From Escherichia coli (GTDB lineage Bacteria > Pseudomonadota > Gammaproteobacteria > Enterobacterales > Enterobacteriaceae), in assembly GCF_016026235.1 (NCBI RefSeq), contig NZ_CP065613.1: a DNA stretch of 64,000 nt; one strand, given 5' to 3'. The notes under the pieces were generated by a model. It ran no database searches, had not been told where the DNA came from, and worked only from the letters and a program-made list of their open reading frames with translations. Both the position numbers and the translations under genes were made by a program. Of the stretch, positions 1,767-62,308 are shown in pieces. Position 1 is the first letter of the stretch. Each line of letters begins with the position of its first letter.

Positions 1767-3467
1767 TCATTGCGACGGCGCGGGAAGCCAGGCTTCGGTA
1801 AATTCAAACCAGCCGCGCGGTGTCAGTCGCACACCGTTCACGCCGGGAGGGGCACTAATGCGATAGTGATAGTTGAACAGCGGCGTCAGCGTCGCGTCTG
1901 CCATTAACTGGCTAAAAACCGCTTTCAGGGCATTAAATCGGTTTTCCTCATCAGGCATTACTTGCACCGCGTCCAGTGTCGATTGCAAATGGGCATATGC
2001 TGGAGCGTCGAAAACATGTGGCCACAGTGGATCGCAACGTAGCCATTGCTCCAGAGTATATTCCGGTGCTTCGCCAATTAATCTGTCGCCCATCATGAGG
2101 TCTGCGTGTGCCAGTAGGGTCGTGTCGTCCCAGTTTTTTGCGTTATGAAAAATAATTGTGAGTTCACAGCCTTCCGCTGCCAGTGTCGCCTGTAAGCGTT
2201 CTGCCATGGTATGAAGTTCTATCGGTAGGTGATAAACCAGCGTCAAGGTTTTCGGTAGTTTGACTTCATCCGGTACGTGCCAATGCGGAATAGTCCAGCC
2301 TGGCAGTAATGCATGACTGGCGGTGATCAGGTTTTCTCCGACTTCTAACGTTTGTAATAAACCGGATTGATGAATAATGGAGATCACTTTTCGCGCCTGC
2401 CAGAGGGAGAGTCGGGGACTTTTGCGCAACGTTAAATAGCAAAAACCTAAACTGATGCCACTACTGACCTGGCTGACCCGTTGCAGCTCCTCCGGTTTGC
2501 CGATGGTGATTTGCACGGGATGCCGACAACTGGTTCCCAAATCTTTTTCGAAAAGCGGCGGAGTTATCCAGTACTCAACCGCTTTAAGCAGCGGATGACG
2601 TAAATGGTAATAATCATGGCTTTCCAGGCGCACCAGCTCCGCTGTGAATTGTGTTAAGCGAAAAGGACCCGTGCCGATCAGTGGGAATTGCGGATGCGCC
2701 AGATGGCTGCAATAGCTCGCCAGCCGGTGCGCAAGCCAGTAATCAGGGCGATGTAAAAAGAAGGTCAGACACTGCGGATGGGTGACCTCAATACGCTTCA
2801 CGCTAATAAATAATTGATCCAGTGCTGGCAGTTGTAACAGCATCAATAATCGCTGGTGTAAGTGTGAGGCTTTTACTGCATCGCCGTTATGCCAGTGTAG
2901 GGTTGAACGAAGATAAAAGTCCCAGCGTAACCCGTCAGCAGAGGTTTCCCAGTGATGCGCTAAATCGCCAATCGGGCGCTGGGTATTATTATCGAAGCGG
3001 GTCAGGCCGGAAAATATCTGTCCGGCGAGATGCTGCTCGGCACGGCCGGGCAAAAAGCCCGGTTGTAGCGGTTCGAGCGGGCGATAGTAGGGAATACGCA
3101 ACGTGGGCGTATCGTTTTGCCATTGTCCGCCCATAAACGGCTGTAACAGAGTGCGCAGCTCACCTGGGGCCAGTTGCGCCAGCTCCAGCACATCTTGCTG
3201 CTTTCCGGTTTCCAGTGCCTGTTCCATCATCGCATTGCGTAGCGATTCTGGCGTGACCAGAAAGCGTAATTGTCCGCGCTTTCCGCGTCCTGACTGCGCC
3301 TGCCACTCCAGCCATCCCGCCTCTTGTGCCTGACGCAACAGCGTACGAACATGGCGTTCGCTGCAAAAACAGCGTTCGGCCAGTTCGCTGACGGTGACGG
3401 TTTGCGGCTTTCCGGCGGAAGGTTGCCACAGACGTTGATACTGGTTAAGACGGTTGAGCAGTCGCAT
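1767..3467 (-). CDS. ybaE: uncharacterized solute-binding-like protein YbaE
   Basis: ORF track 571 aa (1767..3482); start moved to the internal Met to give the 566 aa I recall for E. coli YbaE. Confidence 0.85.
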   Translation of the reverse strand: MRLLNRLNQYQRLWQPSAGKPQTVTVSELAERCFCSERHVRTLLRQAQEAGWLEWQAQSGRGKRGQLRFLVTPESLRNAMMEQALETGKQQDVLELAQLAPGELRTLLQPFMGGQWQNDTPTLRIPYYRPLEPLQPGFLPGRAEQHLAGQIFSGLTRFDNNTQRPIGDLAHHWETSADGLRWDFYLRSTLHWHNGDAVKASHLHQRLLMLLQLPALDQLFISVKRIEVTHPQCLTFFLHRPDYWLAHRLASYCSHLAHPQFPLIGTGPFRLTQFTAELVRLESHDYYHLRHPLLKAVEYWITPPLFEKDLGTSCRHPVQITIGKPEELQRVSQVSSGISLGFCYLTLRKSPRLSLWQARKVISIIHQSGLLQTLEVGENLITASHALLPGWTIPHWHVPDEVKLPKTLTLVYHLPIELHTMAERLQATLAAEGCELTIIFHNAKNWDDTTLLAHADLMMGDRLIGEAPEYTLEQWLRCDPLWPHVFDAPAYAHLQSTLDAVQVMPDEENRFNALKAVFSQLMADATLTPLFNYHYRISAPPGVNGVRLTPRGWFEFTEAWLPAPSQ

Positions 3468-57875: not shown

Positions 57876-60286
57876 TTGCACGTTGGTTCTGGCGCGAATG
57901 GCGTTCGCCGTCGCTATTAATTGTCTGGCTGGCGCTAAGCCTGGCGGTGGCCTGCGTGCTGGCGCTGGGCAATATCAGCGATCGCATGGAGAAGGGCTTA
58001 AGCCAGCAAAGCCGTGAGTTTATGGCGGGCGATCGGGCGCTGCGCAGTTCGCGCGAAGTGCCGCAAGCGTGGCTGGAGGAAGCGCAAAAGCGCGGCCTGA
58101 AAGTCGGCAAGCAGCTGACTTTCGCCACCATGACATTTGCAGGCGACACACCGCAGCTGGCGAACGTTAAAGCGGTGGATGATATCTACCCGATGTATGG
58201 CGATCTGCAAACCAATCCCCCTGGCCTGAAACCGCAGGCGGGCAGCGTATTGCTGGCCCCACGCCTGATGGCACTGCTTAACCTGAAAACGGGCGACACC
58301 ATTGACGTGGGCGATGCCACCTTGCGGATTGCCGGAGAAGTGATTCAGGAACCGGATTCCGGTTTTAACCCCTTCCAGATGGCTCCGCGTCTGATGATGA
58401 ATCTGGCGGATGTCGATAAAACCGGAGCCGTGCAGCCGGGGAGTCGGGTCACCTGGCGCTATAAATTCGGCGGCAGCGAGAACCAGCTCGACAGCTATGA
58501 GAAATGGTTGTTACCTCAGCTTAAACCCGAACAACGCTGGTACGGTCTGGAACAGGACGAAGGCGCGCTGGGGCGATCGATGGAACGCTCGCAACAGTTC
58601 CTGCTGCTTTCGGCGCTTCTGACCTTGCTGCTGGCAGTGGCAGCGGTGGCGGTAGCGATGAATCATTACTGTCGCAGTCGCTACGATCTGGTGGCGATCC
58701 TCAAAACACTGGGGGCAGGGCGAGCGCAACTGCGTAAGCTAATCGTCGGTCAGTGGTTGATGGTGCTGACGCTTTCAGCCGTTACCGGTGGGGCGATAGG
58801 CCTGTTGTTCGAAAACGTGTTGATGGTGCTGCTCAAGCCCGTTCTGCCTGCTGCACTACCGCCAGCCAGCCTCTGGCCGTGGCTGTGGGCGCTTGGCACC
58901 ATGACGGTCATCTCGCTGCTGGTGGGGCTACGACCATACCGCTTGTTGCTGGCAACGCAGCCTTTACGCGTATTACGTAATGATGTGGTAGCGAACGTCT
59001 GGCCGCTGAAGTTTTATCTGCCGATTGTCAGTGTGGTGGTTGTGCTGCTGCTCGCCGGATTAATGGGTGGCAGCATGCTGCTTTGGGCGGTGCTGGCGGG
59101 CGCGGTAGTACTGGCTTTGCTGTGCGGTGTGCTGGGCTGGATGCAGCTGAATGTACTTCGCCGCATGACGCTGAAATCGCTACCTCTGCGCCTGGCGGTT
59201 AGCCGCCTGTTACGTCAGCCGTGGTCAACGTTAAGCCAGCTTTCGGCATTTTCGCTCTCCTTTATGCTGCTGGCGCTGTTGCTGGTATTGCGTGGCGATC
59301 TGCTCGACCGCTGGCAGCAGCAGCTACCGCCAGAAAGCCCGAACTACTTTTTAATTAACATCGCCACAGAACAGGTAGCACCGCTAAAAGCGTTCCTCGC
59401 GGAACATCATATAGTCCCGGAATCGTTTTATCCGGTGGTGCGGGCGAGACTGACGGCGATTAACGGCAAGCCGACAGAAGGCAATGAAGATGAGGCGCTC
59501 AATCGCGAACTCAATCTTACCTGGCAAAATACGCGGCCCGATCATAATCCGATTGTCGCCGGTAACTGGCCGCCAAAAGCCGATGAAGTATCGATGGAAG
59601 AGGGGCTGGCGAAACGCTTAAACGTTGCCCTCGGTGATACCGTGACTTTTATGGGCGATACCCAGGAGTTCCGCGCTAAAGTGACCAGCCTGCGCAAAGT
59701 GGACTGGGAAAGTCTGCGGCCTAATTTCTATTTTATTTTCCCTGAAGGGGCATTAGACGGGCAACCGCAGAGCTGGCTTACCAGTTTCCGCTGGGAGAAT
59801 GGCAACGGCATGTTGACGCAACTCAACCGCCAGTTCCCGACCATTAGCCTGTTAGACATTGGCGCGATTTTAAAACAGGTCGGCCAGGTGCTGGAGCAGG
59901 TAAGTCGGGCGCTGGAGGTGATGGTGGTGCTGGTCACCGCCTGCGGTATGTTGCTGTTGCTGGCACAGGTGCAGGTGGGAATGCGTCAGCGTCATCAGGA
60001 GCTGGTGGTGTGGCGCACACTCGGTGCGGGGAAAAAACTGCTGCGTACCACGTTGTGGTGTGAGTTCGCCATGCTTGGGTTTGTTTCTGGCCTGGTGGCC
60101 GCAATTGGTGCGGAAACGGCACTGGCAGTGTTGCAGGCGAAAGTGTTTGATTTTCCGTGGGAGCCAGACTGGCGATTGTGGATTGTTCTGCCGTGCAGCG
60201 GTGCGCTGCTGCTGTCGCTTTTCGGCGGCTGGCTGGGCGCGAGACTGGTTAAGGGTAAGGCGCTGTTCAGGCAGTTTGCGGGGTGA
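57872..60286 (+). CDS. ybbP: ABC transporter permease YbbP (FtsX-like, duplicated)
   Basis: ORF track 804 aa; overlaps ybbA stop. Confidence 0.92.
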   Translation: MIARWFWREWRSPSLLIVWLALSLAVACVLALGNISDRMEKGLSQQSREFMAGDRALRSSREVPQAWLEEAQKRGLKVGKQLTFATMTFAGDTPQLANVKAVDDIYPMYGDLQTNPPGLKPQAGSVLLAPRLMALLNLKTGDTIDVGDATLRIAGEVIQEPDSGFNPFQMAPRLMMNLADVDKTGAVQPGSRVTWRYKFGGSENQLDSYEKWLLPQLKPEQRWYGLEQDEGALGRSMERSQQFLLLSALLTLLLAVAAVAVAMNHYCRSRYDLVAILKTLGAGRAQLRKLIVGQWLMVLTLSAVTGGAIGLLFENVLMVLLKPVLPAALPPASLWPWLWALGTMTVISLLVGLRPYRLLLATQPLRVLRNDVVANVWPLKFYLPIVSVVVVLLLAGLMGGSMLLWAVLAGAVVLALLCGVLGWMQLNVLRRMTLKSLPLRLAVSRLLRQPWSTLSQLSAFSLSFMLLALLLVLRGDLLDRWQQQLPPESPNYFLINIATEQVAPLKAFLAEHHIVPESFYPVVRARLTAINGKPTEGNEDEALNRELNLTWQNTRPDHNPIVAGNWPPKADEVSMEEGLAKRLNVALGDTVTFMGDTQEFRAKVTSLRKVDWESLRPNFYFIFPEGALDGQPQSWLTSFRWENGNGMLTQLNRQFPTISLLDIGAILKQVGQVLEQVSRALEVMVVLVTACGMLLLLAQVQVGMRQRHQELVVWRTLGAGKKLLRTTLWCEFAMLGFVSGLVAAIGAETALAVLQAKVFDFPWEPDWRLWIVLPCSGALLLSLFGGWLGARLVKGKALFRQFAG

Positions 60287-60302
60287 TGACTGGTGTTAGA
60301 TT

Positions 60303-60602
<300 letters not shown>

Positions 60603-60703
60603 TGAACAGTGTGCATTTTGGCAATAAATCTGAAACCAACTGTCATGTCGGTTTTTTAAAGGCCGAAGGTGGTAAACCTTCGGCCTTAGCTACGTTTCCT
60701 CAG

Positions 60704-60787
60704 TTATTCAATAAACTGACGGATCAGTTCCAGCAGCGCGATTAGCGCCTTAAGCACGATGAGAACTTTATCGAGAAAAGTTTTCAT
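60704..60787 (-). CDS. candidate type I toxin: 27 aa hydrophobic/amphipathic peptide MKTFLDKVLIVLKALIALLELIRQFIE (DinQ/TisB-like)
   Basis: Hand-translated ORF with strong SD AAGGGAG 6 nt upstream of ATG, SD embedded in perfect palindrome CTCCCTTAAGGGAG; central ALIALLELIR segment resembles DinQ as I recall it; not in the ORF track (under 60 aa). Confidence 0.45.
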   Translation of the reverse strand: MKTFLDKVLIVLKALIALLELIRQFIE

Positions 60788-61046
60788 CCGTTGCTCCCTT
60801 AAGGGAGAAAGACAATCACAGCTTACCCTTACGTTGCCTGTAACTATGATTTTCTTCATGTGCTAGATGAGGACTGCCTCTCTCCAAATTAGAGCACCAG
60901 AATCAGCACCACCTGTATCCTGACCAGGACTTAAAAGTACTTTTCCGCACTGCGGTAATCCCTTGAGGCAGTATCACTACTAGCGTCGGGATTGTATCGC
61001 CAACATAGCTGTTTGAATATGTAGGCATCCTGACTTATAATTCACT

Positions 61047-61137
61047 TGCTAGATGAGGACTGTTTCATTTCTGCCCGGAACCACCAAGTCTTGGGCGGAA
61101 AAAATAAAAAAACCGACTGTCATGTCGGTTTTTTTAT
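61047..61137 (+). ncRNA. candidate antitoxin sRNA (about 90 nt), divergent from the toxin ORF; its 5' end carries a 16 nt box identical to 60861-60876 and hence complementary to the minus-strand toxin leader
   Basis: Near-consensus sigma70 promoter TTGAAT (61013-18), 17 nt spacer, TATAAT (61036-41); transcript would start about 61044-61048 and end at hairpin AACCGAC-TGTCAT-GTCGGTT plus 7 T (61111-61137). Confidence 0.45.
61111..61137. terminator. bidirectional Rho-independent terminator (A-tract, hairpin, T-tract) shared by selU (minus) and the candidate sRNA (plus)
   Basis: AAAAAAACCGAC TGTCAT GTCGGTTTTTTT read directly. Confidence 0.75.
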
Positions 61138-61198
61138 ATCTGTATTCTGGTGCAACCATTCTGTTCTCACGACAATCGCCGTTTCAGAATACCGCCCA

Positions 61199-62308
<1,110 letters not shown>

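What the first reader, a model, noticed from the sequence alone, without database searches (positions are those of the whole stretch)
60634..61137. The same terminator hairpin appears twice, about 470 bp apart, bracketing the candidate module
AACCAACTGTCATGTCGGTTTTTT (about 60634-60657, one stem mismatch) and AACCGACTGTCATGTCGGTTTTTTT (61111-61137) share an identical loop and 3' arm. This may reflect duplication or recombination that generated or mobilised the module, or two paralogous sRNA 3' ends of which the first has decayed.
Basis: seen in the sequence. Interest (0 to 1): 0.3.

Follow-up and report, generated by a model that had tools for sequence, protein, structure and literature searches.

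The report
Duplicated antitoxin-RNA terminator flanking toxin module
The two matching hairpins are the transcription terminator of a small antitoxin RNA in a known kind of toxin-antitoxin pair (DinQ/AgrB family) and a stray 25-base copy of it behind the toxin gene: real, but mostly ordinary, and not a sign of mobility.

Summary
A 25-nt direct repeat (24/25 identical) lies at 60633-60657 and 61110-61134, 477 nt apart, and occurs nowhere else in the window.

Copy 2 is the intrinsic terminator of an AgrB-family antitoxin sRNA (Rfam RF02891, 61049-61137). That sRNA is transcribed divergently from a 27-aa DinQ-family toxin gene (60787..60704, minus strand).

The module is a 569-bp presence/absence segment (60616-61184) between ybbP and mnmH. 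About 1,330 of 5,426 complete E. coli genomes carry it.

Both hairpins lie inside that segment, and empty alleles have neither. They are therefore not a target-site duplication or a recombination scar. No genome shows a change in unit copy number.

Copy 1 is a hairpin-only copy. Similarity stops at the 25 nt. No relative in Serratia, Pantoea, plasmids or K-12 dinQ has it. In a diverged Escherichia lineage, removing it restores the family's conserved terminator tail, AATGTTAAAGG.

Copy 1 diverges faster than the rest of the module (3/26 changes against 0/34 for copy 2). It is most likely a relic of a local duplication.

A functional reading is not excluded. In toxin-sense RNA copy 1 forms a clean hairpin (G.U in both lineages) that is fully complementary to the antitoxin terminator.

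The parts
60616..61184 (.). The 569-bp presence/absence segment (the whole module) between ybbP (+, ends 60286, followed by a REP array) and mnmH (-, 61199..62293).
   Evidence: Occupied alleles (window, L001, L004-L006, L039) compared with empty alleles L002 and L003. The boundaries are ambiguous by the dinucleotide CA. There is no target-site duplication and there are no terminal inverted repeats.
60633..60657 (.). Hairpin copy 1, a 25-nt hairpin-only copy of the sRNA terminator. It is weak on the + strand (A.C mismatch). On the - strand (toxin sense) it is a clean 8-bp hairpin with one G.U, followed by CAGAUUUAUU.
   Evidence: It is present in every module-bearing genome and in a diverged lineage. 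It is absent from all other family members examined.
60659..60687 (.). GC-rich hairpin (12-bp arms, 5-nt loop), homologous to the dinQ terminator SL9 / gor terminator of K-12. It is the toxin mRNA terminator and is bidirectional.
   Evidence: (I12), alignments, and the fold. It shows 0/33 changes in the diverged lineage.
60704..60787 (-). DinQ-family type I toxin ORF, MKTFLDKVLIVLKALIALLELIRQFIE (27 aa plus stop).
   Evidence: PGAP annotates dinQ at this position in the 99.8%-identical genome. NCBIfam NF041472 scores 40.9 bits against a cutoff of 30. The peptide is identical in the diverged lineage despite 3 synonymous changes.
60791..60810 (-). Palindrome CTCCCTTAAGGGAG that contains the Shine-Dalgarno sequence (closed-SD hairpin), as in dinQ.
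   Evidence: I13. It aligns with the ctccat..atggag element of K-12 and other dql loci. The mechanism is inferred from PMC5066626.
60862..60885 (-). Antitoxin target in the toxin 5' UTR. It has 15-16 contiguous Watson-Crick pairs with the sRNA 5' end, followed by 9 positions that are mostly G.U.
   Evidence: Direct repeat D5. Duplex energy is -42 to -48 kcal/mol. The 16-nt core is unchanged in the diverged lineage.
60991..60996 (-). Inferred -10 box (TACAAT) of the toxin promoter. No LexA box is present.
   Evidence: It aligns in the same column as TATAAT/TATCAT/TATAGT of other dql loci and the dinQ -10. No CTG-N10-CAG occurs between the ORF and the sRNA, whereas the K-12 control is found. This part is an inference.
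61013..61041 (+). Promoter of the antitoxin sRNA (TTGAAT-17-TATAAT).
   Evidence: 10 of 12 matches. It lies 7-8 nt upstream of the start of the Rfam AgrB match.
61049..61137 (+). AgrB-family antitoxin sRNA.
   Evidence: Rfam RF02891: 53.6 bits against a gathering score of 40, full model 1-84. It folds at -33.9 kcal/mol, z = -5.3.
61104..61137 (.). Hairpin copy 2 (repeat core 61110-61134), the intrinsic terminator of the sRNA. It is symmetric (A7...T7), so it also looks like a terminator for mnmH on the - strand.
   Evidence: (I9). The stem is the same as in the K-12 agrA/agrB terminators. It shows 0/34 changes in the diverged lineage and is identical in 1,211 of 1,330 genomes.

Best explanation
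The interval is a chromosomal DinQ/AgrB-family (dinQ-like, 'dql') type I toxin-antitoxin module inserted between the convergent genes ybbP and mnmH. Hairpin copy 2 is the Rho-independent terminator of the AgrB-like antitoxin sRNA. Because it is symmetric, it probably also stops mnmH read-through. Hairpin copy 1 is a 25-nt copy of that terminator alone. It sits in the U-rich tail of the toxin gene's own GC-rich terminator. It arose by a local duplication within the module, either a tandem duplication of the 477-nt unit followed by deletion of all but its last 25 nt, or a template switch between A/T runs. This happened before the Escherichia lineages that carry the module diverged. Since then it has been inherited passively as part of the 569-bp module. 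It is most likely a relic under little sequence constraint. At most it serves as an auxiliary 3' hairpin or terminator of the toxin mRNA. Shown here: the identity of both genes, the indel boundaries, the confinement of the repeat to 25 nt, its absence from relatives, and its faster divergence. Inferred: the duplication mechanism and the lack of function.
For: Copy 2 lies inside a full-length Rfam AgrB match above the gathering score. The toxin passes the NCBIfam DinQ cutoff and is annotated as dinQ in RefSeq. The module is collinear with K-12 gor-dinQ-agrA, and the terminator stem AAAAAACCGAC/GTCGGTTTTTTT is the same. The sRNA 5' end pairs with the toxin 5' UTR. Empty alleles lack both hairpins. 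The hairpin occurs only in module-bearing genomes. The TGTCAT loop is unique to this module. There is no similarity upstream of the 25-nt core and no partial AgrB hit at copy 1. All other family members have AAAT[G/A]TTAAAGG directly abutting the GC hairpin. In the diverged lineage L080/L081/L083, deleting the 25 nt CTGAAACCGACTGTCATGCCGGTTT restores AATGTTAAAGG exactly. Plasmid dqlB loci show that tandem unit duplication, and leftover 3' parts of agr genes, are common in this family. Between lineages copy 1 has 3-4/26 changes and the adjacent tail 3/17. This compares with 0/34 for copy 2, 0/33 for the GC hairpin and about 3.5% for the whole module.
Against: Copy 1 is retained in all roughly 1,330 module-bearing E. 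coli genomes and in a lineage with about 6% divergence in mnmH. Its 6-nt loop is unchanged. The one stem substitution in each lineage (G->A in E. coli, T->C in the other, both on the + strand) gives a G.U pair in toxin-sense RNA rather than a mismatch. This would fit selection for a minus-strand hairpin. However, two such events have a chance probability of about 0.25. The rate contrast of 3/26 against 0/34 is itself only marginal (about p = 0.08 by my estimate). No transcript data were available.
Confidence: 0.55

Rival explanations
1. Copy 1 is a functional 3' element of the toxin mRNA. It would act as a second stem-loop that completes termination or protects the 3' end, because the GC hairpin is followed only by UUUAAAAAA. 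It might also help block ybbP read-through on the + strand.
For: The terminator scan flags copy 1 only on the minus strand: 8 pairs including one G.U, with tail CAGATTTATT. The minus-strand fold is -8.5 kcal/mol against -6.3 on the plus strand. In the diverged lineage the values are -9.9 against -6.6. Independent substitutions in two lineages both keep the minus-strand stem paired. Copy 1 is fixed in all module carriers. The old U-rich tail (AUUUAUU) now follows copy 1.
Against: The first U residues after the GC hairpin (UUUAA) are the same as in K-12 dinQ, whose 331-nt transcript ends there (PMC5066626). Termination may therefore occur before copy 1. Copy 1 diverges as fast as the flanking sequence. 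No relative needs such an element. The hairpin's stability is not significant against shuffles (z about -1.9).
Confidence: 0.22
2. Copy 1 gives the toxin mRNA a second target for the antitoxin. The toxin-sense hairpin (loop AUGACA) would kiss the sRNA terminator hairpin (loop UGUCAU) and could extend to a 25-bp duplex. This would supplement an unusually short 5' pairing, as in the two-site RNA I/RNA II interaction of the pAD1 par locus.
For: There is full 25-nt complementarity (24 Watson-Crick pairs plus 1 G.U), with a duplex energy of -43.7 kcal/mol. The cofold of the two hairpins is -39.0 against -21.8 for the two hairpins folded separately. The cognate 5' duplex here is only -48 kcal/mol. 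That is close to the non-protective agrA-dinQ pair (-46.6) and weaker than -58 to -68 for agrB-dinQ and other cognate pairs. The loops of both copies are conserved in two lineages, and both substitutions are wobble-compatible with the sRNA.
Against: It requires read-through of the GC hairpin, which is untested. Copy 1 evolves faster than the module average. No other family member has such a site. Complementarity follows automatically from any direct duplication between divergent genes. In the family the 5' site alone is sufficient (compensatory mutations in DqlB-agrB, PMC12365149).
Confidence: 0.12
3. Copy 1 is what remains of a once complete second sRNA gene (an agrA-like paralogue) that decayed in place.
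For: K-12 has two agr genes with identical terminators. Plasmid loci carry truncated agr copies.
Against: In all relatives the extra agr copies lie on the promoter side of the toxin, not behind its 3' end. Only 17 module bases lie upstream of copy 1, and they match the toxin-terminator tail rather than an sRNA body. There is no partial AgrB match.
Confidence: 0.07
4. The two hairpins are the ends of a mobile or recombining unit (a target-site duplication, an attachment-like site or a recombination substrate) that inserted or can excise the module.
For: They are direct repeats near both ends of a presence/absence segment. The module is nearly identical (2 differences in 569 nt) between E. coli and Escherichia sp. 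E1V33 while the flanks differ by 3-6%, which suggests the segment moves between lineages.
Against: Empty sites contain no copy of the hairpin, and the junctions lie 17 and about 50 nt outside the repeats. There are no alleles with one hairpin, and no tandem junction exists in 5,426 genomes. The module is absent from true plasmids and from phages. Spread between lineages is explained by homologous recombination in ybbP and mnmH.
Confidence: 0.03

Closest known systems
dinQ-agrA/agrB locus of E. coli K-12 (gor-arsR intergenic region; Weel-Sneve et al. 2013, PMC3567139; Kristiansen et al. 2016, PMC5066626)
   Same: A 27-aa hydrophobic toxin of the same HMM family. The order is collinear: GC hairpin, toxin, long 5' UTR with SD hairpin, divergent promoter, sRNA. 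The sRNA matches Rfam AgrB. The terminator stem is identical. The same terminator also occurs twice in direct orientation (agrA and agrB, 231 nt apart).
   Different: Here there is only one complete sRNA. The second terminator copy is hairpin-only and lies on the other side, behind the toxin's 3' end. The loop is TGTCAT instead of GCAAA. No LexA box is present. The 5' complementarity is shorter. The chromosomal site is different (ybbP-mnmH), and the module is present in only about a quarter of E. coli genomes.
dql (dinQ-like) genes of Enterobacteriaceae, including the experimentally validated DqlB-agrB addiction module of pOXA-48 (PMC5066626; PMC12365149)
   Same: The family, with sRNA pairing to the toxin 5' UTR. 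The loci are chromosomal or plasmid-borne and lack the K-12 context. Tandem duplication of units and of agr 3' parts is seen in plasmid L008.
   Different: The toxin scores as DinQ (40.9 bits), not DqlB (24.5 bits, below the cutoff of 35). None of the dql loci examined (Serratia, Pantoea, IncX7, IncFII, two metagenomic plasmids-like contigs) has a hairpin copy behind the toxin terminator.
par (fst) RNA I / RNA II of Enterococcus faecalis plasmid pAD1 (from my own knowledge of the literature; not checked here)
   Same: At the sequence level, the antitoxin RNA is complementary to the toxin mRNA at two separate places, a 5' repeat region and the terminator stem-loop.
   Different: In par the genes are convergent and physically share the terminator, and the two-site interaction has been shown experimentally. 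Here the genes are divergent, the 3' complementarity comes from a dispersed 25-nt duplicate, and whether it is even transcribed is unknown. The families are unrelated.

Membership tests
DinQ/AgrB (dinQ-like) type I toxin-antitoxin | Small hydrophobic single-helix toxin that matches the DinQ profile | tested here: met
   NCBIfam NF041472 toxin_DinQ scores 40.9 bits against a cutoff of 30. PGAP calls dinQ at the same position.
DinQ/AgrB (dinQ-like) type I toxin-antitoxin | Divergently transcribed AgrB-type sRNA with its own promoter and intrinsic terminator | tested here: met
   Rfam RF02891 scores 53.6 bits against a gathering score of 40, covering model positions 1-84. The promoter is TTGAAT-17-TATAAT. 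The terminator fold is -16 kcal/mol.
DinQ/AgrB (dinQ-like) type I toxin-antitoxin | The sRNA 5' region is complementary to the toxin 5' UTR upstream of the SD, specifically to its own partner | tested here: met
   A 16-nt perfect core plus G.U pairs. The cognate pair is the best in the cross-matrix, but only marginally: -48.2 against -47.5 for the Serratia oryzae UTR. It is weaker than the other cognate pairs.
DinQ/AgrB (dinQ-like) type I toxin-antitoxin | Conserved 5' UTR architecture with an SD-sequestering hairpin | tested here: met
   The palindrome CTCCCTTAAGGGAG lies over the SD (I13). The UTR aligns with K-12 and four dql loci. The structural switch itself was not tested.
dinQ proper (SOS regulon member) | LexA box overlapping the toxin promoter | tested here: not met
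   No CTG-N10-CAG occurs between the ORF and the sRNA gene. The K-12 control, CTGGATAATCATACAG, was found.
DinQ/AgrB (dinQ-like) type I toxin-antitoxin | Toxicity of the peptide and rescue by the sRNA | not testable with these tools
   Only indirect evidence is available. The peptide is identical across lineages with 3 synonymous changes. Natural alleles also exist in which the toxin start is deleted.
Intrinsic (Rho-independent) terminator | Stable GC-containing hairpin followed directly by a U tract | tested here: met
   This verdict is for copy 2, which qualifies on both strands. Copy 1 does not qualify on the + strand, and it qualifies only weakly on the - strand.
Mobile-element boundary / target-site duplication | The repeat lies at the exact ends of the inserted segment, and one copy is present in the empty site | tested here: not met
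   The empty alleles L002 and L003 have no copy. The junctions lie outside both repeats.
Two-site antisense control (par-like) | The second complementary region is present in both RNAs and is used for binding | tested here: inconclusive
   The complementarity exists in the DNA. Whether copy 1 is included in the toxin transcript, and whether any binding occurs, could not be tested.

The most novel reading that the evidence does not exclude
A trans-encoded type I antitoxin may have acquired a second contact with its toxin mRNA by duplicating its own terminator behind the toxin gene. The toxin 3' hairpin (loop AUGACA) and the AgrB-like terminator (loop UGUCAU) would form a kissing complex. That complex would compensate for a 5' duplex as short as that of the non-protective agrA. 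If so, a par-like two-site mechanism would have evolved de novo in the DinQ/AgrB family.
Probability: 0.12. Interest if true: 0.55.

Novelty: new member of a known kind. Interest (0 to 1): 0.22.

Why it matters
The main value is clarification. The repeated hairpin is not evidence of mobility, and it is not a new RNA class. It marks the 3' end of the antitoxin sRNA of a DinQ/AgrB-family type I toxin-antitoxin module that about a quarter of E. coli strains carry between ybbP and mnmH. There are two smaller points of interest. First, the hairpin-only copy is a datable example of how terminator hairpins are duplicated within such modules, and it automatically creates a second region of sRNA-mRNA complementarity that could be tested. 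Second, the locus has no LexA box, so the automatic 'damage-inducible' product name is probably misleading for this paralogue.

Tried and rejected
- **Target-site duplication or recombination scar: rejected.** Empty alleles lack both copies.
- **Generic terminator found throughout the genome: rejected.** The hairpin occurs only in module carriers, about twice per genome.
- **Variation in unit copy number: none found.** There is one place per genome. No contiguous match to a synthetic tandem junction exists in 5,426 genomes. The few genomes with two places are consistent with IS-split modules such as EPEC E2348/69.
- **Extension of the repeat into the sRNA body: not found.** Local alignment of the 40 nt upstream of each copy gave only AATAAA, with p about 0.1-0.5. 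An Rfam E-value search over copy 1 gave no AgrB hit.
- **Plasmid or phage origin of this sRNA or hairpin: not found.** The three 'plasmid' hits are records longer than 1 Mb (mislabelled chromosomes), and there was no phage hit.
- **Search for a pre-duplication allele (family tail abutting this GC hairpin): unexpected outcome.** The metagenome scan did not find such an allele. It found a diverged lineage that still carries copy 1, which proved more informative.
- **Literature: nothing on this locus.** No paper mentions this locus or the hairpin duplicate. The supplements of PMC5066626, which list the dql genes, are not held.
- **Genome-collection scan with the toxin 20-mer: mostly chance hits.** Most hits fell in GC-rich genomes, and only 8 loci were relevant.

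Full report
**1. The observation**

The window between ybbP (+ strand, stop at 60286) and mnmH (- strand, 61199..62293) contains a 25-nt direct repeat. The copies are AAACCAACTGTCATGTCGGTTTTTT (60633-60657) and AAACCGACTGTCATGTCGGTTTTTT (61110-61134). They share 24/25 positions and lie 477 nt apart.

The shared 18-mer occurs nowhere else in the 64-kb window, even with two mismatches allowed; 0.00 matches are expected by chance.

Copy 2 is the centre of a perfect hairpin with 14-nt arms, flanked by A7 and T7 (-16 kcal/mol, z = -7.5). Copy 1 carries one A.C mismatch on the + strand and is weak there (-6.3 kcal/mol, z = -1.5).

**2. What the surroundings are**

- **The sRNA.** Rfam places a full-length AgrB match (RF02891, 53.6 bits against a gathering score of 40) at 61049-61137 on the + strand, and copy 2 is its terminator. 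A TTGAAT-17-TATAAT promoter ends 7-8 nt upstream.
- **The toxin.** On the minus strand, 60787..60704 encodes MKTFLDKVLIVLKALIALLELIRQFIE. This passes the NCBIfam DinQ toxin model (40.9 bits, cutoff 30). PGAP annotates it as dinQ in the 99.8%-identical genome FDAARGOS_943.
- **Comparison with K-12.** The interval is collinear with the K-12 gor-dinQ-agrA-agrB locus. The shared order is GC-rich terminator hairpin, toxin, long 5' UTR, divergent promoters, sRNA. The K-12 agrA and agrB terminators have the same stem (AAAAAACCGAC...GTCGGTTTTTTT) but a different loop (GCAAA).
- **The pairing site.** A second direct repeat, TGCTAGATGAGGACTG at 60861-60876 and 61047-62, is the sRNA-target complementarity expected of this family.
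- **The SD hairpin.** A palindrome over the Shine-Dalgarno sequence (60791-60810) matches the closed-SD hairpin of dinQ (mechanism from PMC5066626).

The family is published: dinQ/agrAB (PMC3567139), the dinQ-like 'dql' genes (PMC5066626) and the validated DqlB-agrB addiction module of pOXA-48 (PMC12365149). I found no paper that describes this particular locus or the hairpin duplicate.

**3. Is the hairpin generic, and does the unit vary in copy number?**

It is not generic. Among 5,426 complete E. coli genomes, 1,332 hold the module and 1,313 hold it nearly complete, always at ybbP-mnmH. 51-mers centred on copy 1 or on copy 2 match the same 1,330 genomes and nothing else, typically at two places per genome.

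The unit does not vary in copy number. A synthetic tandem junction (sRNA 3' end followed directly by the GC hairpin) has no contiguous match in any genome.

The sRNA with its TGTCAT loop is absent from true plasmids and from phages. Plasmids carry only the more distant dqlB/dinQ-like modules.

**4. Are the repeats the ends of a mobile unit?**

They are not. The empty alleles (CFT073 and 21AR0173) read ...gaacagCgtgca|cagaatcccccatcac.... The presence/absence segment is therefore 60616-61184 (569 bp). It contains both hairpins, and the empty site has none. There is no target-site duplication and there are no terminal inverted repeats.

**5. What is copy 1?**

Its loop is specific to this module's sRNA. 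Relatives have GCAAA, TTCACCA, TACACCC or CTCACCA. Copy 1 is therefore derived from copy 2.

Similarity does not extend beyond the 25 nt, and Rfam finds no partial AgrB there.

No other family member has a hairpin at this position. This holds for K-12 and other Escherichia dinQ loci, for Serratia oryzae, Serratia sp. H1w and Pantoea stewartii, and for IncFII and IncX7 plasmids. In all of them the GC hairpin is directly preceded by AAAT[G/A]TTAAAGG.

A metagenome scan recovered three contigs (L080, L081, L083) of a diverged lineage. Their mnmH is 93-94% identical to the window and the module 96.3-96.6% identical. This allele is absent from E. coli complete genomes. In these contigs the region reads caacAAT|CTGAAACCGACTGTCATGCCGGTTT|GTTAAAGG. 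Removing the 25 nt restores the family tail AATGTTAAAGG exactly.

Copy 1 is therefore a hairpin-only insertion into the tail of the toxin terminator, and it is older than the split between these lineages.

Plasmid L008 shows that whole-unit tandem duplication, and leftover 3' parts of agr genes, are common in the family. A tandem duplication followed by deletion is thus a plausible route. A template switch between the A and T runs is the alternative. I cannot tell the two apart.

**6. Constraint on copy 1**

| Region (window vs diverged lineage) | Changes |
|---|---|
| Copy 1 | 3-4/26 |
| Adjacent tail | 3/17 |
| Copy 2 | 0/34 |
| GC hairpin | 0/33 |
| 5' UTR | 3-4/201 |
| Toxin ORF | 3/84, all synonymous |

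Copy 1 therefore evolves like unconstrained flanking DNA.

Some evidence points the other way. The loop is unchanged. The single stem substitution in each lineage (G->A in one, T->C in the other, + strand) is a mismatch in plus-sense RNA but a G.U pair in toxin-sense RNA. There the hairpin folds at -8.5 and -9.9 kcal/mol, and the simple scan calls it terminator-like. Two such events have a chance probability of about 0.25, so this is a hint rather than evidence.

**7. Mechanistic reading**

- **Copy 2.** It terminates the antitoxin sRNA. Being symmetric, it probably also stops mnmH transcription from running into the module in toxin sense.
- **Copy 1.** Most likely (about 0.55) it is a relic carried along with the module. 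Less likely (about 0.22) it acts as an extra 3' stem-loop or terminator of the toxin mRNA.
- **The most novel reading (about 0.12).** The toxin 3' hairpin is perfectly complementary to the antitoxin terminator (-43.7 kcal/mol; loops AUGACA and UGUCAU). It could provide a second, kissing-loop contact. This is made more attractive by the weak cognate 5' duplex here (-48 kcal/mol). That value is similar to the non-protective agrA-dinQ pair (-46.6) and weaker than -58 to -68 for other cognate pairs. The reading depends on read-through of the GC hairpin, which I could not test.

**8. Verdict**

The finding is real but largely explained by a known family. It is a DinQ/AgrB-type type I toxin-antitoxin module with a stray copy of its antitoxin terminator. 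The 'mobilisation' idea is not supported.

Noticed in passing
window 60300-60605: A REP/BIME array lies downstream of ybbP (two full Rfam naRNA4 matches plus a partial one, and ES036). The number of units differs between strains: 1 in CFT073 and Escherichia sp. E1V33, 2 in 21AR0173, 3 in the window.
   Followed up: partly
window 60758-60875 (alleles L004, L006; hits H64-H69): A common E. coli allele has lost 108 nt between the direct repeats GATGAGAACT (inside the toxin ORF) and GATGAGGACT (the antitoxin target). This removes the toxin start codon, the SD and the target, while keeping the sRNA and both hairpins. It appeared in roughly one in seven of the sampled rows.
   Followed up: partly
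L005 (EPEC E2348/69) 2110-3215; corresponds to window ~61012: An IS481-family insertion sequence, with the duplication cagctgtt, sits between the toxin promoter and the -35 box of the sRNA promoter.
   Followed up: partly
window 60616-61184 vs L039 (Escherichia sp. E1V33): The module differs at only 2 positions from that of a different Escherichia lineage. The flanking ybbP shows 6-8 differences per 200 nt and mnmH shows 9-21 (mnmH 94% identical). This suggests recent transfer of the segment between lineages by homologous recombination, or unusually strong constraint.
   Followed up: partly
window 60788-61048: No LexA box lies upstream of the toxin gene, unlike K-12 dinQ. The RefSeq product name 'damage-inducible type I toxin DinQ' is probably not accurate for this paralogue.
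   Followed up: yes
window 60862-60885 / 61049-61073: The sRNA-to-5'-UTR complementarity is unusually short for the family: a 16-nt perfect core followed mostly by G.U pairs, at -48 kcal/mol. This is close to the agrA-dinQ pair, which does not protect in K-12. The window sRNA pairs almost as well with the Serratia oryzae toxin UTR (-47.5).
   Followed up: partly
L008 (Salmonella IncFII plasmid NZ_CP022492.1) 1200-2850: Two tandem dqlB units are each followed by one full agr-like sRNA and by one or two promoter-less agr 3' fragments with their own terminators. This illustrates how terminator-bearing fragments pile up in this family.
   Followed up: no
(E. coli genomes): At least one genome shows three places matching the copy 2 51-mer instead of two. 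I did not identify which genome, or why.
   Followed up: no
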